From the IMG/VR virus record IMGVR_UViG_2706794699_000012: 48,572 nucleotides of DNA; one strand, given 5' to 3'. Shown one piece after another: positions 27,992 through 42,343 of the stretch (within the stretch, counting starts at the first letter, position 1; each line of letters begins with the position of its first letter). Both the position numbers and the translations under genes were made by a program. Under the pieces are notes generated by a model. That model ran no database searches, was not told the origin of the DNA, and saw only the letters and a list, made by a program, of their open reading frames with translations. The stretch is from a virus. Its lineage: Duplodnaviria > Heunggongvirae > Uroviricota > Caudoviricetes.

Positions 27992-28456
27992 TTACTTTAA
28001 ACACTGCTCGGTTATGTATTGCTGAGCACCTTCAAGTTGGGCCTGCATCATTACCAGTCGTTCCCGGAGGGTGAAATAATCCCGTTCAGCGGTGTCTGCC
28101 AGTCGGGGGGAGGCTGCATTATCCACGCCGGAGGCGGTGGTGGCTTCACGCACTGACTGACAGACTGCTTTGATGTGCAACCGACGACGACCAGCGGCAA
28201 CATCATCACGCAGAGCATCATTTTCAGCTTTCGCATCAGCTAACTCCTTCGTGTATTTTGCATCGAGCGCAGCAACATCACGCTGACGCATCTGCATGTC
28301 AGTAATTGCCGCGTTCGCCAGCTTCAGTTCTCTGGCATTTTTGTCGCGCTGGGCTTTGTAGGTAATGGCGTTATCACGGTAATGATTAACAGCCCATGAC
28401 AGGCAGACGATGATGCAGATAACCAGAGCGGAGATAATCGCGGTTACTCTGTTCAT
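27992..28456 (-). CDS. rzpR: spanin inner-membrane subunit Rz
   Basis: N-terminal TM helix then coiled coil; start MNRVTAII; follows endolysin. Confidence 0.8.
28051..28236 (-). CDS. rzoR: spanin outer-membrane lipoprotein Rz1, embedded in Rz in another frame
   Basis: 61 aa, lipobox VVGC, proline-rich ([15 protein letters not shown]), nested within Rz. Confidence 0.75.
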
Positions 28457-28950
28457 TGCTGACCCCACAAACAGATTTCACGCTCAATCTCACGACGAGT
28501 CATGAGACCTTTCCATTGCTTACCGCCAGCATATGTCCAGCGACGTAGCTGATCACATGCGCCTTTGATATCGCCCTGGTTTATTTTGCGAAGAAGCGTC
28601 GATGTTCTGAAATTGCCAGCACCCACGTTGTAAACGAATGAGTAAAGAGCGCCGCGCGTTGTTTCCGGTATATCGACTTTGATGTACGGGTTAATTTGTC
28701 TGGCGACAGTGGCAAGGTCTTTATTCAAGAGTGTTTTGCATTCTGCTTTGGTATACGTTTTACCGAGCATGATGTCTTTTCCTGTATGCCCGTGACATAC
28801 AGTCCATACACCAACAATATCTTTGTATGGTATGTAGCTGACACCTTCCAGACCATCGTTACCACTTGGGCCAGTGATTAACACTGATGCTATAGCAATT
28901 GCTCCGCCACCAATAGCAGCAGCAACGACTTTTCGTAATGATGGAGGCAT
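28453..28950 (-). CDS. SAR endolysin (phage 21 R-type lysozyme)
   Basis: N-terminal Gly/Ala-rich signal-arrest-release helix ([18 protein letters not shown]) then lysozyme-like domain; 165 aa. Confidence 0.85.
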
Positions 28951-29165
28951 TATTCACCTCTCGCAGCCTTGCGCTTATCTTCTTTAATCTTGAAATAAAG
29001 GTTTGTCAGGTACGTCAGCAGGCCAAATACCAGACTACCCAGCACACCGATTGCAGCCCACTGTGACGGAGTTACTCTATCGAGCAACTGTAAAAACCAG
29101 TAGCCAGCACTGCCTGCGGAGGTGCCGTAGGCAATGCCTGTTGAAATTTTGTCCATGGATTTCAT
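28950..29165 (-). CDS. pinholin (phage 21 S-type) with dual-start motif
   Basis: [24 protein letters not shown]...; two Met codons three codons apart (ATG at 29165 and 29156) as in the S21 71/68 pair; preceded by GGAGGTGA. Confidence 0.85.
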
Positions 29166-29266
29166 AGCCTCACCTCCGCACGGAACGGATGGCATAGTTA
29201 TTATGTGTAGGCTTTCAGACACATCAATCAGAGCCTTAATTGATATATATGCTGGAGACGATGCAA

Positions 29267-29291
29267 TATAAAAAGCTCGCCGTAGCGAGCT
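29267..29291 (-). terminator. rho-independent terminator downstream of the lipoprotein morons
   Basis: Stem agctcgc (29274-29280) / gcgagct (29285-29291), loop cgta; minus-strand RNA is followed by UUUUAUAUU. Confidence 0.6.
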
Positions 29292-29416: not shown

Positions 29417-29812
29417 CTAACCTCGCATGTCAAAGCCAGATTTCTGAAAATCTCTGTAGACTTCCGGATTGTTGAAGGCCGGAAATTTGGCTTTATGAGC
29501 TGCGGACTTTATCGCTTCGCAATAGGCTTTATCACCGTTACTGGTAGATATTTTTAACGCCGTGCCATCCTGAGAGAATTCCATATGCAACCTGCATTTT
29601 TTCCCTTTCCAGTTATGCGGCTCATCAAGTTTGGCATTAATTGCAGCTCTGATTCCCCGCGCTTGCGCCCCCCATTCATCCTGATCATCCCAGCGTCCTG
29701 AACTGCAACTACCTGTAGCAGTAGTTTTGTGGCAATCTGAAGGGTGTAAAGGTGTGCATCCCGCAACAAAACCGACCCAAAAAGTCAACATAACGATTTT
29801 CTTTAATCCCAC
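29417..29812 (-). CDS. lipoprotein with TolA domain-III-like C-terminus (paralogue 2)
   Basis: GTG start preceded by GAGGAG; signal peptide + lipobox VAGC; C-terminal ...KKCRLHMEFSQDGTALKISTSNGDKAYCEAIKSAAHKAKFPAFNNPEVYRDFQKSGFDMRG parallels paralogue 1, including the Cys pair. Confidence 0.7.
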   Translation of the reverse strand: MGLKKIVMLTFWVGFVAGCTPLHPSDCHKTTATGSCSSGRWDDQDEWGAQARGIRAAINAKLDEPHNWKGKKCRLHMEFSQDGTALKISTSNGDKAYCEAIKSAAHKAKFPAFNNPEVYRDFQKSGFDMRG

Positions 29813-29962
29813 TTCTTGCTCCTCAATCCATTAAAATCTCAGCAATAGTAGTTGTTACGTCCGCCACTGGCTCAGAGCTGACTATCCGCTAAATTTAGCT
29901 CAGTGCCGTAGCTGTGTCAGAACAAACCTAAGCCGAAACCGTTTATTACAAAACAATAAATA

Positions 29963-30391
29963 TCAGGGTTTAAAATCCAGCACCCCATTTTGAAATACTT
30001 TATATACTTCCGGCGAAGGGGGGGCAGGTATATCAGCATTCTTTATCGCATTCATCGCTTCACGACATAAATCGAGGTCTCCACTTTCTCTTTTAACCTC
30101 CAGTAGAAGGCCATTCGGGGCCATATGCATTCTCAGTGTACACTCTTTTCCTGAATACTTACTCGCATCCCCGAACTGTTTTTCGATGGCGCTCTTGATT
30201 TGATGGGCATACAGACGGATATCCTCACTAACATCAGAAGTACGTTCAGATGAACTCACATACTGTGTCTCTATTGCTTTATCGGAGTAATATGATGTAC
30301 GGTCATGATAATTTGTCGATACAGCATCAGTGCACCCGATAATAATCCCACTAATAATCAACGTAAGAATTGATGCGCTACGAAAACCCAT
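29963..30391 (-). CDS. lipoprotein with TolA domain-III-like C-terminus (paralogue 1)
   Basis: Signal peptide + lipobox IIGC; C-terminal YAHQIKSAIEKQFGDASKYSGKECTLRMHMAPNGLLLEVKRESGDLDLCREAMNAIKNADIPAPPSPEVYKVFQNGVLDFKP closely resembles the E. coli TolA C-terminus (...TCTLRIKLAPDGMLLDIKPEGGDPALCQAA...KNAPLDFKP, from memory); SD GAGG upstream. Confidence 0.75.
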   Translation of the reverse strand: MGFRSASILTLIISGIIIGCTDAVSTNYHDRTSYYSDKAIETQYVSSSERTSDVSEDIRLYAHQIKSAIEKQFGDASKYSGKECTLRMHMAPNGLLLEVKRESGDLDLCREAMNAIKNADIPAPPSPEVYKVFQNGVLDFKP

Positions 30392-30988
30392 TTTTCCTCA
30401 CATATGTCATATAGTAAAGGATTATATATACCGTTGTTTTGGACGCTCAAACAGCGAATCAGATCAAATAAAACGCACATTTGTTAACATTTACACAAAG
30501 TCTGCGTGGGATATTCTGAAAGAATATCCATAATGTGGAGAGAATCTATTGAAGTGCATGGTGCCGGGTGCCTCCCGGTGAACAAAATGTTCGTGATACC
30601 TGTCGGCGACAGAAAAGGTTAATGGTATCACCCCACCGCACAGGGGGATTCACCATGCAGGAGTTTTCTTAGCAAACTCACTGCGCGCCCGGCAACTCCC
30701 AACCACATAAAATGCGGAGTTTGTGGCATTTATGCATATAACTCGCAGGAATTATCTTAAAAAACTGATGTCGATCCGGATTAAAAAGAAGCAGGTCATC
30801 ATCAGATGACTGGAAAAAAGGAAAACAAAAAATACTCATCATACAGTTTTGATTGCAGGGATGAGCCTGCTATGCACAATATGCAGAATATAAGCAAGAT
30901 AAAAATATGCAGGCATATTATTTCGGATCTTGTTATTAACACAACCTTTTTAATAATCATTTGGCATACAATAAACCAGCCCAAAAAG

Positions 30989-31008
30989 AACCGCCTAAAC
31001 AGGCGGTT
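30989..31008 (-). terminator. hairpin + U-run in the post-Q leader
   Basis: Stem aaccgcc (30989-30995) / ggcggtt (31002-31008); minus-strand RNA is followed by CUUUUUGGG. Confidence 0.4.
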
Positions 31009-31325
31009 GGTCAATACAAAGGATGCTTCGTCTTTATTATAGTAATCTGAGGCGTCGGGTGTCTTGTATCAGACAACATATTGTCCCGCTAAACAGCGAA
31101 TTACAAACCACCCTGCAATGATCTCTCATCTCATTTTATATGAGTTGACGACATCAGGATAACGCATCATCAGCCCCTGCCAAGAAATATCAAAACTCCC
31201 GCCAGCAATGTGTTATCACAATATTGTAAAAAAAACACAGCACCGAAACTATAACTGGTCTCTGTTATAATTTGGAGCAGAAAGACCAGTTGCCCAACTA
31301 GCAGCATTCTCCCCTGCTTTCCTGA

Positions 31326-31435: not shown

Positions 31436-31978
31436 TCAAGCCATTTTCTCAGCAAATGATTCACGCATGGGAATATATAGGGCATACTCAGCAACAGCTA
31501 ACCAATTAGCAATCCGTTTTTCGCATGTGCTAAAACACCACTCTGGGTGTGCATCATTTAGCAATTCAGCCATTTTGCGCTTAGTCATCCCCCGCCCTTC
31601 ATAGCGTTGCCGGAGAATGCAAATCAATCCTGGATGCTCTGCCAGCACCTCACTTATGACTCGATCAATACATAACGCCTCTGCATCAGTACAATGCGCC
31701 AGCCAGCTCTTTTGCTTGCCGTTGATCATCTCTCGCAAAAACGCTTCCAGCTCAGCTTTCTCTATTCCCGCTTTTTTCATTCTGCGCAGGGCTTCATTAA
31801 TGGCTGTTTTCGTCAGTTTTTTGGATGCCAACAACTGATTGAACATATTCCCTGACCTGCCACCGCCAATATACGACCAGCGCCCCCACATACGTAGTTT
31901 TCCCTGAATCCAGACACTTTCCAGCGTGGTGAGGCGAAGGTGTTCTCCGCTTTTTCCTGTATTCGTTGGGTAAATCAT
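31436..31978 (-). CDS. late-gene antiterminator Q-like protein
   Basis: Assigned mainly by position: last gene after DUF1364, immediately upstream of tR-prime-like hairpin and lysis cassette; 180 aa. Confidence 0.55.
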   Translation of the reverse strand: MIYPTNTGKSGEHLRLTTLESVWIQGKLRMWGRWSYIGGGRSGNMFNQLLASKKLTKTAINEALRRMKKAGIEKAELEAFLREMINGKQKSWLAHCTDAEALCIDRVISEVLAEHPGLICILRQRYEGRGMTKRKMAELLNDAHPEWCFSTCEKRIANWLAVAEYALYIPMRESFAEKMA

Positions 31979-33232: not shown

Positions 33233-33677
33233 GTAGCCACATGATAAGTTGCTGGAATCATATTTCCCACTCAAGTCATTAACATTTGATAAGATATATC
33301 TAAAAGGACGCCTTTACATTATTTATGCGTATATAATTTATTTATATACACAGTAAAGGTATCCTGGGAAAATATTTATCGTTAAAAAATACATCATAAA
33401 TAATTAAGCTGAAATTTCAGAACACAACTAATACACACAATAAGGTTCAGTAACAGTAATCTATGTGGACTACATCGAGATTTTTTGATTAAACTTTAAT
33501 AACTTATTCCTAACACACAGAATGCATAAACTAAAAGTAAAACAAATAGTTATACGAAAAACAACCATATTTATTCTATCTTCTCCTCTAATCAACATAT
33601 CAATTATGTGTTTCATAACAGCTTGACATAACCCTCCAAAAGATGCATTTTTAATGCATGTTTTGGAGGAGGTGGTT

Positions 33678-34016
33678 ATGACACACAAGAGAATTCCTAA
33701 AGATTGGGTAATCAAACGCTCAACTCCGTTCTTCACAAAAGAGAACGTACCTTCAGCGTTATTAACACATCATAATACAGCAGCAGGTGTTTTTGGGCAG
33801 TTGTGCGTAATGGAAGGCACTGTAACATATTATGGTTTTACTGATGAGAATGCTACTGAACCGGAGATAAAAGTAGTCATTAATGCTGGCGCTTTTGCAA
33901 CAAGCCCACCACAATACTGGCACCGTGTTGAACTAAGCGATGATGCTCAGTTTAATATTAACTTTTGGGTCGCTCCAGACTTTTCGGGCGAAAAAGTCTA
34001 TAGCACCAAAAAATAG
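33678..34016 (+). CDS. YeaR-like protein (DUF1971 family), plus-strand cargo gene
   Basis: ATG at 33678 preceded by GGAGGAGGTGG; ...KRSTPFFTKE...QLCVMEGTVTYYGFTDE...FNINFWVAPDF resembles E. coli YeaR as recalled; opposite strand to all neighbours. Confidence 0.7.
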   Translation: MTHKRIPKDWVIKRSTPFFTKENVPSALLTHHNTAAGVFGQLCVMEGTVTYYGFTDENATEPEIKVVINAGAFATSPPQYWHRVELSDDAQFNINFWVAPDFSGEKVYSTKK

Positions 34017-34636: not shown

Positions 34637-35638
34637 TTAGTAATCTGCGTGTTTCGCACTTTTCAGAAATGCTTTCATATTTTCATTAGGTCGCTCAATT
34701 TCGAAGTTACTTCCATATAACTCTTGTAATTTTGGCCATAACTTACTTAATAACCCTCTCCTGCGATAAAATGGATGTATCCAAACGGTAGATAGGTACG
34801 GAGAATTTGCATTTGAATTGTTTATTGTGACCAGCCCAACTAAACATTGTCGATAACCACTATTATCCATTGATTGTATTTCTTCGACGAATGGATACGC
34901 GATTACATCAGTCCAACCATGATCGGTTGTATCCCATTGCATTCCGTCATGACATTCCTTCGACTGATAGCGGCGTAAAGCTACACACGCGAGCTTTTGC
35001 CAATCTGGAGAATTAATTGTGATCTCTTCATCGTATGACGCGCCTATTGGAGCGGGTATTGGTCTGATTAATCCAGCATGGCATTCATCATAGAACTTCA
35101 TGTTTCCCTCAGAAACGTTGTGTACGTTGGGTTGCTCCATGTGTGCGCCATTCAAAAATAGCTCTGATAGTAGTGTATCTACACTGTAATCTTTATTGAT
35201 TATTGTCGGCTTAGAGTTTTTCTTATTAAGGCCGCGAGTAACGATTTTTTGATCAATGTTAACAACATGGAATAATCCGTCGGGGAGGCTAGCGAACCAC
35301 GATGGGGCATCGGACCAGAATAGCATGCCTTTTGTACTTCTTAAGAGTTTAATTAAGTTAATACAAGCTTCTTCACTAGTCTTGCCGTTGATGCGAAGTA
35401 TGTTAGGACTAAAGTAATATTCATCCATATCAGGGAATGCAGCTTCGCAAAACTCCTGTACATAATTTAGCACCTGGATTCTACAGAGATCATCATAGCT
35501 GGTAATAACTAAGGGGGTATCTTCATTACTATTATGATTATCAATAATGCAATCTATAGCGAGACTTACTGCTTTGCGTATCACTTCAGTTGAATCTAAC
35601 GACTCTAAAAATTTTGTCTTTCGTGTGCGAATATCCAT
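34637..35638 (-). CDS. uncharacterised protein B of an AT-rich two-gene accessory operon (possible GNAT-like C-terminus)
   Basis: 333-aa ORF, 15-nt spacing after gene A; AT-rich; C-terminal ...CLVGLVTI...STVWIHPFYRRRGLLSKLWPKLQELYG loosely resembles an acetyltransferase pyrophosphate-binding loop. Confidence 0.7.
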   Translation of the reverse strand: MDIRTRKTKFLESLDSTEVIRKAVSLAIDCIIDNHNSNEDTPLVITSYDDLCRIQVLNYVQEFCEAAFPDMDEYYFSPNILRINGKTSEEACINLIKLLRSTKGMLFWSDAPSWFASLPDGLFHVVNIDQKIVTRGLNKKNSKPTIINKDYSVDTLLSELFLNGAHMEQPNVHNVSEGNMKFYDECHAGLIRPIPAPIGASYDEEITINSPDWQKLACVALRRYQSKECHDGMQWDTTDHGWTDVIAYPFVEEIQSMDNSGYRQCLVGLVTINNSNANSPYLSTVWIHPFYRRRGLLSKLWPKLQELYGSNFEIERPNENMKAFLKSAKHADY

Positions 35639-35653
35639 GTATGACCTGCGCTA

Positions 35654-36676
35654 TTAAAATTCATGAATGAACGGTTTGTCATCTGGTTGCAAAATGGTGG
35701 TTTTATTCGTTGCTACATTTAAACTGTTGTAGAGCATAATTGCCAGGTTCGATGCATTTTCAATCAGCGTTTCAAGATCCTGGTCTGTAATCACTACGAG
35801 GTTCCCTTCTTTATCCTTTCCACCACGATGCACTAAGTGATTTCGATTGAGGGTTGCCAATTCAATAGCTTCTATCGGACAGTCTTTTTGTACTTTTATA
35901 TCGAATGTAGCTTCATAGCGGTCGATTACCTTTTTAGTGCTATGCCAGCTTGCACTGATCAAGTGTTCCTTGATTGACCTGATTAGCTCTCCCCTAATTT
36001 TCTCGATGGGTTCACCCTTGAAAGGCAACGCAGCAATATCTTTGCTTACTTTAAATTCAGTCTTACCTTTTTCTATACAATTGGCTATGTAGACATCATC
36101 TTTCTCTATAGAATTAATGAATAGCTCAACATAAAGCGTTTCCAAAGCTGTAATAACATTCGTGTAGAGCAAACTAAGCAAGTGGTTTTTTTGCTGTTGT
36201 TCAGTTTTATCTTTTGCAAGTTTTTTTATTTTATCGATATTATCAATGAATTTTAAATACGGATTACCGGAAGACGTTACAGCGTCGTAGATATCATCAT
36301 CGTACCAATCATCTATATTATTTGAGTTTCCAGACCAGTCAAAACATTGTGTTTGTAATTCATCTACTAATTCCTCAATATACTCAGATTTAACATATTG
36401 ACCGAAGATGGATTGTAGTTCTTCGCTCGCATCATACGGCCCGCCATATATGTAAGCATAGCCACCTTCTCTACTTTCATACGGACAAGCATTTGCCGGA
36501 TCTTCAAAGTTTTCAAAGAACCAGTTTTTCATTACTTCGAGTTGATCTTTTTTGCTTATGTATTTTAAAGATTTTAGTGGAACTTTCTTTCCATTAACCT
36601 CGAAAACAATTTTCACGATGTAACGCTCCCTTGTATCAATTGCGCAACTATTATACCACAGCGAAATACAGGGCAT
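35654..36676 (-). CDS. uncharacterised protein A of the AT-rich two-gene accessory operon (R-x4-H, HEPN-like motif)
   Basis: ATG at 36676 preceded by AAGGAGG; alternative GTG at 36616 (AGGGAG upstream); track ORF extends to 36745; C-terminal LNRNHLVHRGG motif at residues 301-306 of the track ORF. Confidence 0.7.
   Translation of the reverse strand: MPCISLWYNSCAIDTRERYIVKIVFEVNGKKVPLKSLKYISKKDQLEVMKNWFFENFEDPANACPYESREGGYAYIYGGPYDASEELQSIFGQYVKSEYIEELVDELQTQCFDWSGNSNNIDDWYDDDIYDAVTSSGNPYLKFIDNIDKIKKLAKDKTEQQQKNHLLSLLYTNVITALETLYVELFINSIEKDDVYIANCIEKGKTEFKVSKDIAALPFKGEPIEKIRGELIRSIKEHLISASWHSTKKVIDRYEATFDIKVQKDCPIEAIELATLNRNHLVHRGGKDKEGNLVVITDQDLETLIENASNLAIMLYNSLNVATNKTTILQPDDKPFIHEF
36650..36658 (-). 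promoter_or_regulatory. extended -10 element TGgTATAAT upstream of the alternative GTG start of gene A
   Basis: Plus-strand attata at 36650-36655 and cca at 36656-58 give minus-strand TGgTATAAT; no good -35. Confidence 0.35.
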
Positions 36677-36814
36677 AACCTGCCTCCTTAAACTAACATA
36701 CCATGAGCCAGCAATGTCCGCTATTGGCACAAAGCGGACAACCACGCTAGCTCTCCCCTGTGCCAGAAAAATGTCAATTTACATATGAACTAATGCTCTT
36801 TGATCTAGTAACGT

Positions 36815-41261: not shown

Positions 41262-41417
41262 ATGCAAAAAATCGACCTCGGCAACAACGAATCCCTGGTG
41301 TGCGGCGTGTTCCCCAACCAGGATGGAACGTTCACTGCCATGACGTATACCAAAAGCAAAACATTTAAAACCGAAACTGGTGCGCGCCGATGGTTGGAGA
41401 AGCACACAGTAAGCTAA
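41262..41417 (+). CDS. ydaG: small protein YdaG-like
   Basis: Hand-translated 51-aa ORF MQKIDLGNNESLVCGVFPNQDGTFTAMTYTKSK...; not in track (under 60 aa). Confidence 0.5.
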   Translation: MQKIDLGNNESLVCGVFPNQDGTFTAMTYTKSKTFKTETGARRWLEKHTVS

Positions 41418-41902
41418 CGATTAAAACGTCTACTCCTGCTGTTCCAGAATAACTTCATAAAATGGGAGTATTTTTCGGTGACGAGATAATAAGAACAGTT
41501 TGCGCTATCACTCTGATGTTGAATGATGCCCTTCCGTTCTAATTTTTTCATAACCGGGTTACGGCAAGGAGAAGTGATAATAAGATTTCCTGTTTTAAGG
41601 AAATCTTTAAATACAGCGATTTCTTTCTCAGATAAACGAAGCAATACTCGTTGCTCTGGTAGTAATGAATAATGCTTTTGAATATGTGCTCGCAATCTTG
41701 AGAAGGAAATGGCGACCACGAAAGAAAAGGCAAAAACGATAATCTGAAAGAGCCAAGGTATTTCAGTATAAGCATTGAATGCGACAGTAAACTCTTTCGG
41801 TATCAGCCAGAGAGTGAGACCAAAAATGATAATCGTATACATAAGTATTTCGAGTGGCTCGTTAGCAAAAAGTTTCAACAATGGAGTAAATACATCCAAC
41901 AT
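41414..41902 (-). CDS. sieB: superinfection exclusion protein B
   Basis: Start MLDVFTPLLKLFANEPLE... gives 162 aa matching Rac SieB as recalled; membrane helices. Confidence 0.85.
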   Translation of the reverse strand: MLDVFTPLLKLFANEPLEILMYTIIIFGLTLWLIPKEFTVAFNAYTEIPWLFQIIVFAFSFVVAISFSRLRAHIQKHYSLLPEQRVLLRLSEKEIAVFKDFLKTGNLIITSPCRNPVMKKLERKGIIQHQSDSANCSYYLVTEKYSHFMKLFWNSRSRRFNR

Positions 41903-42343
41903 ATCAATAACTCTCAACTGTAAGGGTATTGAAATGTTAACACAAGCTCTCGCTGTAGGGGTATAGCCGAGACCACCGAAGCCCGGAGGTGGTGAAATAA
42001 AACCGGGCACAACACGAAGGCGCATTTCCGATATCCATAAAGAGTCGGTCTTGTCTGTTAAATTTAAATGGTGGGAGTGCGCCTCCGGTTGTAAATAACG
42101 ACATTGCTGTGTGTAGTCCTGGCGGCATCAGTTTTTTTCTTGAAGTTCGGCTGATGTCCGCCCTTTTTAAAGTGAATTTTGTGATGCGGTGAATGCGGCT
42201 AAGCGCACGTGGCACAGTTAAAAGTCATGTTAGTCCTTATTGGTTTGGGTGGGAAAGCCGACTGTAATTGTTAACTGGTTGCAGTCACCTGGAGGCACCA
42301 GGCACCGCATCAACAAAGTTCATTTGTAAAAATGGAGATAATT

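What the first reader, a model, noticed from the sequence alone, without database searches (positions are those of the whole stretch)
29417..30391. Two tandem lipoproteins whose C-termini mimic TolA domain III, inserted between Q and the lysis cassette
Both ORFs have a signal peptide with a lipobox (IIGC, VAGC) and a C-terminal ~90-aa domain that aligns by eye to the C-terminal domain III of TolA, including the conserved Cys pair and, in paralogue 1, the terminal ...VLDFKP. TolA domain III is the periplasmic docking site used by Ff filamentous phages and group A colicins. A prophage-encoded, membrane-anchored copy could act as a decoy or interfere with Tol-Pal-dependent entry (superinfection exclusion or colicin tolerance), or modulate envelope integrity. 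The genes are bracketed by their own SD sites, a plausible sigma70 promoter (TTGAGC, then a TATATA-rich -10 around 30421-30450) and a downstream terminator, the classic moron layout.
Basis: partly seen in the sequence, partly recalled or inferred. Interest (0 to 1): 0.78.

Follow-up and report, generated by a model that had tools for sequence, protein, structure and literature searches.

The report
Prophage lipoproteins copying TolA's docking domain
A Rac-type E. coli prophage carries two small outer-membrane lipoprotein genes whose folded part copies the TolA domain that colicins and filamentous phages dock onto; they are common, under strong selection and unstudied, and most likely act as decoys, though that is untested.

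Summary
Two minus-strand genes lie between the Q-like antiterminator and the holin of a Rac-family prophage: P1 (29963-30391, 142 aa) and P2 (29417-29812, 131 aa). Each has a signal peptide with a lipobox, a disordered linker and a C-terminal TolA domain III. Pfam PF06519 gives E=2e-23 and 1e-14. P1 is 60% identical to E. coli TolA 336-421 and ends in the same LDFKP; P2 is 31%. A predicted promoter and a strong terminator hairpin bracket the pair.

They are not recent duplicates, because P1 is closer to TolA than to P2. P1 alleles occur only in the Q-to-holin region of E. coli prophages. P2 belongs to a strongly conserved family (dN/dS 0.04-0.12) found singly on Enterobacterales chromosomes, on pO157, and just downstream of the relaxase gene on IncK/IncI-gamma plasmids. 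The intact cassette is in 773 of 5,426 complete E. coli genomes and is deleted in K-12.

Databases already name the domain, but PGAP calls P1 a tolA pseudogene, PHROGs says 'unknown function', and I found no paper on it. The best-supported mechanism is an outer-membrane TolA-III decoy that gives tolerance to Tol-dependent colicins and inoviruses (confidence about 0.45). Damping of Tol-Pal and an unknown envelope role remain open.

The parts
29963..30391 (-). P1: gene for a 142-aa lipoprotein with a C-terminal TolA domain III. Signal peptide and lipobox IIGC cover aa 1-20, a disordered linker aa 21-52, and the domain aa 53-142 (29966-30235).
   Evidence: ORF. Pfam PF06519 E=2.4e-23. PDB TolA III chains E about 5e-28. 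52/86 identity to TolA 336-421 with an identical LDFKP C-terminus. AF2 pLDDT is about 90 for residues 53-142 and below 50 for 13-52. The lipobox is conserved in alleles of 65-100% identity. Domain dN/dS is 0.09-0.35.
29417..29812 (-). P2: gene for a 131-aa lipoprotein (GTG start) with a C-terminal TolA domain III. Signal peptide and lipobox VAGC cover aa 1-19, a conserved Cys-rich linker (C19-x7-C27-x8-C36) follows, and the domain is aa 45-131 (29420-29680).
   Evidence: ORF. Pfam PF06519 E=1.3e-14. PDB TolA III chains E about 5e-9. AF2 model plus Foldseek: 3QDP at rmsd 1.1 A, TM 0.89. All 120 listed relatives have the lipobox and the linker. dN/dS is 0.04-0.12. PGAP starts it at an internal ATG (124 aa), which removes the basic KK n-region that homologues keep.
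30421..30450 (-). Sigma-70-like promoter candidate TTGAGC-18-TATAAT, 30 nt upstream of the P1 start codon.
   Evidence: Consensus scan, 10 of 12 matches. Kept with one -10 change in the 91% allele; a different upstream sequence is present in the 65% allele. This is pattern-level evidence only.
30395..30399 (-). Shine-Dalgarno sequence GAGGA for P1.
   Evidence: Read from the sequence.
29819..29824 (-). Shine-Dalgarno sequence GAGGAG, 6 nt before the GTG start of P2.
   Evidence: Read from the sequence.
29266..29291 (-). Intrinsic terminator (7-bp GC-rich stem, loop of 4, U5) between P2 and the holin gene.
   Evidence: Scan. RNA fold -13 kcal/mol, z = -3.98, 0 of 200 shuffles fold as well. No comparable hairpin lies between P1 and P2.
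30502..30688 (-). STnc100-type RNA element between Q and P1. It is flanking context and is possibly a recombination boundary of the cassette.
   Evidence: Rfam RF02076, 86.6 bits against a gathering score of 47. Copies flank P1 on both sides in related prophages.
31436..31978 (-). Q-like late antiterminator (DUF1133). It forms the upstream boundary of the insertion site.
   Evidence: Pfam DUF1133 E=2.5e-107 and Phage_antitermQ 26.1 bits. A candidate late promoter (31065..31036) and terminator (31008..30989) lie downstream of it.
27992..29222 (-). Lysis cassette: holin (28950-29165/29222), endolysin (28453-28950), Rz (27992-28468) and embedded Rz1 lipoprotein (28051-28236). It forms the downstream boundary.
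   Evidence: ORFs. The identical region in strain ECCHD184 is annotated essD, rrrD and lysis protein.

Best explanation
P1 and P2 are outer-membrane lipoproteins that each display a free copy of TolA domain III at the periplasmic face of the outer membrane.

Expression. They are probably transcribed as a two-gene unit from their own promoter in the lysogen. After induction they would also be transcribed as part of the Q-dependent late transcript.

Proposed mechanism. The copies lack TolA domains I and II, so they are not coupled to the TolQR motor. A ligand that binds them is held at the outer membrane instead of being pulled in. The candidate ligands are:
- the TolA-binding segments of group A colicins and related bacteriocins
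- the N1 domain of pIII from Ff, If1 or IKe-type filamentous phages
- the TolB N-terminus that nuclease colicins use to reach TolA

The expected outcome is tolerance or exclusion for the lysogen or the plasmid host.

The two proteins differ. P1 is the close mimic of E. coli TolA III. P2 comes from an older, very conserved family and may have a different ligand range.

Shown here: the genes, the lipobox, the fold, conservation of the beta3 site in P1, purifying selection, and the distribution.

Inferred: outer-membrane sorting (from the +2 residue rule), expression in the lysogen, ligand binding, and the phenotype.
For: - Fold and homology to TolA III.
- The beta3 strand is the site where g3p-N1, colicin N and the TolB N-terminus bind by strand addition, with D418 and K420 backbone bonds (PMC4339652). 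P1 has VLDFKP-COOH there against TolA's PLDFKP-COOH. It also keeps K396 and the DI..YA start of helix 1.
- The lipobox, with Thr, Ala, Ser or Gly but never Asp at +2, is conserved across both families. The linkers of about 25-32 residues are disordered. This would place the domain just under the outer membrane, where imported ligands emerge.
- Both genes are under purifying selection, so they are functional rather than debris.
- A promoter-like site and a strong terminator bracket the pair.
- The mirror-image experiment is published. Periplasmic pIII-N1, which sequesters TolA, gives colicin A resistance and a 4-log drop in phage uptake (PMC10424213).
- P2 homologues sit 68 nt downstream of the relaxase gene nikB on I-complex conjugative plasmids, and on the F-type plasmid pO157. 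If1 uses TolA III as co-receptor, as the title of PDB entry 2X9A states. That hosts of these plasmids are the targets of pilus-specific filamentous phages is my own knowledge.
- Lone copies occur in Enterobacter, Citrobacter, Klebsiella and Serratia. These genera produce and face Tol-dependent bacteriocins (own knowledge). The Serratia copy lies next to a GmrSD/HEPN pair.
Against: - No binding or phenotype was tested, and no published experiment on these proteins was found.
- A decoy for the beta3 site should also bind the host's own TolB. Soluble periplasmic TolAIII makes cells leaky, so a cost or a different primary effect is possible.
- P2 has changed the colicin A contacts: K368 to E, K396 to H, and LLDIKP to ALKIST.
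- P2 is almost invariant across genera. Relatives sit at syntenic chromosomal sites in Klebsiella and Raoultella. That pattern looks more like binding to a conserved host partner than an arms race.
- There is no PADLOC match.
- Expression in the lysogen rests on consensus matches only. The promoter sequence is not shared by the 65% P1 allele.
Confidence: 0.45

Rival explanations
1. The proteins modulate the host's own Tol-Pal system. They bind the TolB N-terminus (or Pal) at the outer membrane and so compete with TolA. This loosens the link between outer membrane and peptidoglycan. When made in bulk from the late transcript just before the holin, they would help outer-membrane disruption, vesicle shedding or release of periplasmic and phage products. 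Colicin tolerance would be a side effect.
For: The genes sit in the Q-dependent late transcript, immediately upstream of holin, endolysin and spanin. All P1 alleles examined sit there. TolB shares the beta3 site with g3p and colicin N, and P1 keeps it. Periplasmic TolAIII overproduction causes leakage of periplasmic proteins (PMC6195910, which cites Levengood-Freyermuth 1993 and Wan & Baneyx 1998). The extreme conservation of P2 fits a conserved host target.
Against: The P2 family is mostly outside phages, as a lone chromosomal or plasmid gene with no lysis genes nearby. A strong terminator separates the pair from the holin, and the pair has its own promoter-like site. This is the layout of lysogen-expressed accessory genes. 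Spanins already perform outer-membrane disruption (established knowledge).
Confidence: 0.25
2. The proteins have an envelope role unrelated to TolA ligands. The TolA/TonB-type fold is used as a general strand-addition binding module for some other periplasmic or outer-membrane partner, for example in stress adaptation or in support of conjugation. Phages and plasmids simply carry a useful host gene.
For: A search of protein-cluster representatives found about 130 relatives, most of them 110-160 aa lipoproteins of diverse sequence. Named members come from Erwinia, Klebsiella, Enterobacter, Rahnella and Dryocola. Chromosomal positions are stable and syntenic across Klebsiella and Raoultella. The Cys-rich linker of P2 is conserved as strongly as the domain, which hints at a second interaction surface. 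On I-complex plasmids the gene follows nikB.
Against: P1 is too close to E. coli TolA III for an unrelated specificity to be the simplest reading. It is 60% identical and has the same C-terminal strand. No candidate partner emerges from gene neighbourhoods, which differ in every genus.
Confidence: 0.2
3. The genes are non-functional debris. P1 would be a captured 3' fragment of tolA, as PGAP annotates it, and P2 a decaying relative.
For: In strain ECCHD184, PGAP marks P1 as 'tolA, incomplete, missing N-terminus'.
Against: P1 is an intact ORF with a Shine-Dalgarno sequence, a signal peptide and a lipobox, and these are kept in alleles down to 65% identity. Domain dN/dS is 0.09-0.35 for P1 and 0.04-0.12 for P2. 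The cassette is at least 99% identical in 773 genomes. It is carried by the phage record mEp460_ev081.
Confidence: 0.03

Closest known systems
Domain III of E. coli TolA (residues about 333-421; PDB 1TOL, 1S62, 3QDP/3QDR, 2X9A)
   Same: Same Pfam family and fold, with three helices and a three-stranded sheet. The Cys pair is conserved. P1 is 60% identical and ends in the same LDFKP strand that binds g3p-N1, colicin N and TolB.
   Different: There is no N-terminal membrane anchor (domain I) and no long helical domain II, so there is no coupling to TolQR. A lipoprotein signal peptide and a short disordered linker take their place. The genes are not in the tol-pal operon. P2 is only 31% identical and has altered colicin A contacts.
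Laboratory constructs that export soluble TolAIII to the periplasm (Levengood-Freyermuth 1993; Wan & Baneyx 1998, as cited in PMC6195910)
   Same: A free TolA III domain in the periplasm, uncoupled from the motor. It perturbs Tol-dependent functions and makes cells leaky. Colicin tolerance in such strains is from my own knowledge of the 1993 paper, which I could not read.
   Different: Those constructs are artificial, soluble and overproduced. P1 and P2 are natural, lipid-anchored, presumably at the outer membrane, and under selection.
pIII-mediated exclusion by Ff filamentous phages (pIII or its N1 domain occupies TolA)
   Same: It targets the same TolA III/ligand interface and yields colicin A resistance and a 4-log drop in phage uptake (PMC10424213).
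   Different: It is the mirror image. There the ligand is over-supplied to block the receptor. Here a copy of the receptor would be supplied to soak up the ligand.
Exclusion lipoproteins of phages and plasmids: Cor (phi80/N15/HK022), Llp (T5), TraT (F), Bor (lambda)
   Same: They are small outer-membrane lipoproteins encoded by mobile elements. They are expressed in the carrier cell and protect it from incoming phages, DNA or serum (own knowledge; Llp-FhuA is in the bioRxiv abstract listed).
   Different: Cor and Llp bind and plug the outer-membrane receptor FhuA. P1 and P2 are copies of a periplasmic co-receptor domain. No other family was detected: Pfam returns only TolA and TonB_2 above its cut-offs (plus But2 at E=0.15, below cut-off), and PADLOC returns nothing.
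Accessory genes ('morons') in the Q-to-holin interval of lambdoid prophages (stx, nanS-p, and others)
   Same: Same insertion hotspot, with expression possible both from an own promoter and from the late transcript. In other prophages P1 alleles sit in this interval next to genes with AraC-type HTH, PmrD and SASA/DUF1737 esterase-like domains.
   Different: The cargo is different, and no virulence role is indicated.

Membership tests
Pfam PF06519 TolA C-terminal domain | Profile match above the gathering score | tested here: met
   P1 82.6 bits and P2 54.6 bits against a cut-off of 25.
Pfam PF06519 TolA C-terminal domain | TolA III fold (helix, two strands, helix, helix, C-terminal strand) | tested here: met
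   The P2 model against 3QDP gives rmsd 1.1 A and TM 0.89, and the top five hits are all E. coli TolA III. The P1 model has the same order of elements, with pLDDT about 90.
Pfam PF06519 TolA C-terminal domain | Conserved cysteine pair (TolA C363/C388) | tested here: met
   C84/C109 in P1 and C73/C98 in P2. These are invariant in the family alignment. Disulfide formation itself cannot be tested here.
TolA proper (cell envelope integrity protein TolA; NF007065 / TIGR02794) | Full-length architecture: N-terminal inner-membrane anchor plus long domain II | tested here: not met
   The matches cover only profile positions about 265-387. NF007065 scores are 107.8 and 53.7 against a cut-off of 213. 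P1 does pass the TIGR02794 cut-off (75.6 against 59.45), which explains the 'TolA' names in databases. The N-terminus is a lipoprotein signal peptide.
TolA proper (cell envelope integrity protein TolA; NF007065 / TIGR02794) | Location in the tolQRA-tolB-pal operon | tested here: not met
   The genes lie between the prophage Q and holin genes.
Bacterial lipoproteins (Lgt/LspA substrates) | Signal peptide ending in a lipobox [LVI][ASTVI][GAS]C | tested here: met
   IIGC and VAGC. The lipobox is conserved in 34 of 34 near-full-length P1 relatives and 120 of 120 P2 relatives.
Bacterial lipoproteins (Lgt/LspA substrates) | Lipid modification and outer-membrane sorting | not testable with these tools
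   Only the sequence rule can be applied. The +2 residue is Thr, Ala, Ser, Gly or Val and never Asp, which predicts Lol-dependent transfer to the outer membrane.
Phage moron (autonomous accessory transcription unit) | Own promoter and terminator inside a phage operon | tested here: inconclusive
   A promoter-like site with 10 of 12 matches and a strong terminator hairpin are present. These are pattern matches without transcript data, and the promoter is not conserved in the 65% allele.
Known anti-phage defence or exclusion families (PADLOC-DB; Cor/Llp type) | Sequence membership in a catalogued defence family | tested here: not met
   No PADLOC hit. Both proteins fall in PHROG 5772, 'unknown function'. 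Pfam shows only TolA and TonB_2 above cut-off.
Functional TolA III mimic (decoy) | Conservation of ligand-contact elements of TolA III | tested here: inconclusive
   P1 has beta3 identical in LDFKP, keeps K396, changes K368 to H, and has LLEVKR for LLDIKP. P2 has beta3 GFDMRG, K368 to E and K396 to H (using contacts). Binding was not tested.

The most novel reading that the evidence does not exclude
Stand-alone, outer-membrane-anchored TolA-III lipoproteins form a widespread, unrecognised class of innate protection in Enterobacterales. They would be co-receptor decoys that intercept Tol-dependent bacteriocins and filamentous-phage pIII at the outer membrane. They are spread by prophages (the P1+P2 cassette), by pilus-encoding plasmids (IncK/IncI-gamma, pO157) and as chromosomal genes. 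P1 and P2 would cover different ligand sets.
Probability: 0.4. Interest if true: 0.8.

Novelty: new variant of a known kind. Interest (0 to 1): 0.6.

Why it matters
If the decoy reading is right, about one in seven sequenced E. coli strains, together with pO157 and the IncK/IncI-gamma resistance plasmids, carry a built-in tolerance factor against group A colicins and filamentous phages. This matters in three ways:
- It would affect colicin-based and phage-based antibacterial strategies, and also plasmid-curing schemes that use pilus-specific phages.
- It would add a new principle, co-receptor mimicry at the outer membrane, to the list of exclusion mechanisms carried by mobile elements.
- It would give Tol-Pal researchers natural, selectable TolA III variants for mapping which surface binds which ligand.

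K-12 lacks the cassette. That explains why it has been overlooked, and it makes K-12 a clean test background.

Tried and rejected
1. Literature. Ten full-text searches on TolA with prophage, lipoprotein, decoy, moron, plasmid names, the PGAP product name and WP accessions found no paper on these genes. Subscription journals are largely outside the library.
2. yggA of IncI1 plasmids was suspected to be the plasmid homologue. It is a different gene, on the other side of oriT, and IncI1 pESBL has nothing between nikB and trbC.
3. GenBank phages. tblastn with P1 finds TolA III homologues in only one of 50,697 records, the same one that carries this cassette. Isolated-phage records therefore gave no diversity.
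4. The IMG/VR scan returned 80 near-identical E. coli prophage loci. These were useful only to show that P1 and P2 always travel together there.
5. The P2 linker (SSGRWDDQDEWG) recalled the TolB box of colicin E9 (DGSGWSSENNPWG, from memory). BLASTP finds nothing, and the second Trp lies in helix 1 of the folded domain in the model. The idea was dropped.
6. The pseudogene reading of P1 was rejected on conservation and dN/dS.
I used a profile search instead. It was flooded by partial TolA entries but gave the Klebsiella and Raoultella contexts.
8. The 1993 paper on periplasmic TolA III (PMC196117) is not held.
Full report
**1. What is there**

The window is a Rac-family lambdoid prophage of E. 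coli. The identical region in strain ECCHD184 runs from ompN to intR and contains trkG, essD, rrrD and recET.

Two ORFs lie on the minus strand between a Q-like gene and the lysis genes:
- The Q-like gene is at 31436-31978 (DUF1133, with a weak Phage_antitermQ match).
- The lysis genes are the holin, endolysin, Rz and Rz1, spanning 27992-29222.
- P1 is at 29963-30391 (142 aa, ATG start).
- P2 is at 29417-29812 (131 aa, GTG start).

**2.

*Homology.*
- Both proteins match Pfam TolA C-terminal (PF06519) well above threshold: 82.6 and 54.6 bits against a cut-off of 25.
- Both match solved E. coli TolA III chains: P1 at E about 5e-28 and P2 at about 5e-9.
- In an ungapped register against TolA 336-421, P1 is identical at 52 of 86 positions, P2 at 27 of 86, and P1 with P2 at only 25 of 86.
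- The TolA cysteine pair is kept in both, and P1 ends in VLDFKP.

*Structure.*
- AlphaFold models are confident for P1 residues 53-142 and P2 residues 45-131.
- Everything between the lipobox and the domain is disordered.
- The P2 model superposes on TolA III (3QDP) at 1.1 A, and the next hits are the g3p and If1-g3p complexes of TolA III.

*Lipoprotein signals.*
- The N-termini are lipoprotein signal peptides (IIGC, VAGC).
- The lipobox is present in every near-full-length relative: 34 of 34 for P1 and 120 of 120 for P2.
- The +2 residue is never Asp, which by the standard sorting rule predicts an outer-membrane location.

*Regulatory signals.*
- Shine-Dalgarno sequences precede both starts.
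- A TTGAGC-18-TATAAT site lies 30 nt upstream of P1.
- A strong hairpin plus U-tract terminator lies between P2 and the holin (-13 kcal/mol, z = -4).
- No terminator separates P1 from P2. The layout is a two-gene accessory unit embedded in the late operon, but this rests on pattern matches only.

**3. These are real genes from two lineages**

In ECCHD184, PGAP labels P1 an incomplete tolA pseudogene and starts P2 at an internal ATG. Both calls look wrong.
- P1 alleles of 91% and 65% identity keep the signal peptide and lipobox.
- The P1 domain has dN/dS 0.09-0.35, and the linker 0.4-0.8.
- P2 homologues keep the basic KK n-region that the internal ATG would remove.
- The mature P2 protein has dN/dS 0.04-0.12 at dS 0.5-1.1.

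P1 is closer to TolA than to P2, so the pair is not a recent duplication.

**4. Distribution**

*The cassette in E. coli.*
- The 1,251-bp cassette is at least 99% identical in 773 of 5,426 complete E. coli genomes.
- It is present in the phage record mEp460_ev081, which has a different Q gene.
- In 80 of 80 IMG/VR prophage loci carrying P2, P1 is also present. The offset is the same in 77 of them.
- Other P1 alleles also sit downstream of Q and upstream of the holin, sometimes without P2.
- K-12's Rac has lost everything from ydaW to Rz, including this cassette.

*The P2 family elsewhere.* The word-indexed search returned 368 proteins (90%-identity cluster representatives). Members are found in these places:
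- pO157, near toxB and the hok/psiAB region
- 68 nt downstream of nikB, on the same strand, in IncK2/Z and IncI-gamma/K1 plasmids; IncI1 pESBL does not have it
- as a lone chromosomal gene in Enterobacter, Citrobacter and Serratia

*The wider class.*
- An exhaustive search of protein-cluster representatives found about 130 relatives. Most are 110-160 aa lipoproteins ending in an FKNAPLDFKP-like strand.
- Named members come from Erwinia, Klebsiella, Enterobacter, Rahnella and Dryocola.
- Klebsiella and Raoultella carry a 142-aa member at a syntenic site.
- All names are automatic. PHROGs lists the family as 'unknown function', and PADLOC has no match.

**5. Mechanism**

*Known ligand sites on TolA III.*
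- The C-terminal strand beta3 takes g3p-N1, colicin N and the TolB N-terminus by strand addition (PMC4339652).
- Strand beta2 (375-LLDIKP-380), together with K368 and K396, takes colicin A (PMC3365938).

*How P1 and P2 compare at these sites.*

| Site | TolA | P1 | P2 |
|---|---|---|---|
| beta3 | PLDFKP | VLDFKP | GFDMRG |
| K396 | K | K | H |
| K368 | K | H | E |
| beta2 box | LLDIKP | LLEVKR | ALKIST |

*Published precedents.*
- Sequestering this interface from the other side, with periplasmic pIII-N1, gives colicin A resistance and a 4-log loss of phage uptake (PMC10424213).
- Soluble periplasmic TolAIII makes cells leaky (PMC6195910).

*Preferred reading.* I favour an outer-membrane-tethered, motor-uncoupled TolA III decoy that traps incoming Tol-dependent ligands. 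The plasmid contexts fit this. I-complex and F-type plasmids make the pili used by If1 and Ff phages, and If1 uses TolA III (PDB 2X9A). Confidence is about 0.45.

*Main rival.* The proteins may act on the host's own TolB, and so on Tol-Pal, to loosen the outer membrane. The late-operon position next to the lysis genes fits this. The P2 family's mostly non-phage distribution does not. Confidence is about 0.25.

*Third reading.* The proteins may bind an unrelated conserved partner. P2's near-invariance, its conserved Cys-loop linker (C-x7-C-x8-C) and the syntenic chromosomal copies suggest this. Confidence is about 0.2.

*Debris.* This reading is effectively excluded.

**6. Comparison and novelty**

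These proteins belong to the TolA C-terminal domain family but are not TolA. They lack domains I and II and the tol-pal context, and they fall below the NF007065 cut-off.

They work most like two things: engineered periplasmic TolAIII, and, in outcome, exclusion lipoproteins such as Cor and Llp. The principle differs from Cor and Llp, because it would be co-receptor mimicry rather than plugging of a receptor.

The domain homology is already visible in database names. The lipoprotein architecture, the two-lineage cassette, its prevalence and a function are not described in any paper I could find. The literature search does not cover most subscription journals.

**7. Verdict**

The function is plausible but untested. 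I rate it a new variant of a known kind, with interest 0.6.

Noticed in passing
window 30502-30688 (-); also L020/L021 4704-4877, 5599-5803, 5854-6061: An STnc100-type RNA element (Rfam RF02076, 86.6 bits) lies between Q and P1. In related prophages, copies flank the P1 gene on both sides and replace P2. This looks like a repeated element that marks boundaries of accessory genes in the Q-to-holin region.
   Followed up: partly
window 34637-35638 (-) and 35654-36745 (-): Two adjacent ORFs of 333 and 363 aa lie between the replication genes and the DUF1367-YbcO-Q block. They have only sub-threshold Pfam hints (GNAT; HEPN/RES N-terminal domain 1) and no PADLOC or NCBIfam match. In strain ECCHD184 this position holds unrelated cargo. 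They may be an uncharacterised defence or toxin pair.
   Followed up: partly
window 29756-29704 (-), P2 residues 19-36; P2-family alignment A1: The P2 linker carries an invariant C-x7-C-x8-C motif (CxPLHPSxCHKTTATGxC). It is kept in relatives down to about 30-50% identity and is under the same purifying selection as the domain, yet AlphaFold gives it no confident structure. Its role is unexplained.
   Followed up: partly
L004 20664-20924 and 20118-20492 (strain ECCHD184, identical to window P1/P2): In the one RefSeq record inspected, P1 is annotated as an incomplete tolA pseudogene and P2 starts at an internal ATG that removes the signal-peptide n-region. The feature names under the other identical matches suggest that the same calls are propagated to other genomes.
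   Followed up: yes
L003 5004-5435, L103-L105 4004-4435 (IncK2/Z and IncI-gamma/K1 plasmids): The P2 homologue sits 68 nt downstream of the relaxase gene nikB on the same strand, so it is probably part of the oriT operon. IncI1 pESBL lacks it.
   Followed up: partly
L109-L111 (Klebsiella pneumoniae IncFII plasmid contigs): A 133-aa relative of P2 lies next to repA and is followed by a thioredoxin-like (PF13098) gene. This is suggestive, given the extra cysteines in the linker.
   Followed up: no
window 41414-42025 (-) and 33654-34016 (+): The SieB superinfection-exclusion homologue is intact here but is a pseudogene in ECCHD184. A 120-aa ORF resembles the N-terminal third of the TehB methyltransferase, so it is a probable fragment.
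   Followed up: no
window 30989-31065 (-): A candidate late promoter (AAGACA-18-TATAAT) is followed about 30 nt later by a hairpin terminator downstream of the Q-like gene. This would fit a pR'/tR' pair, but the hairpin is not better than shuffled sequence (z = -1.6).
   Followed up: partly
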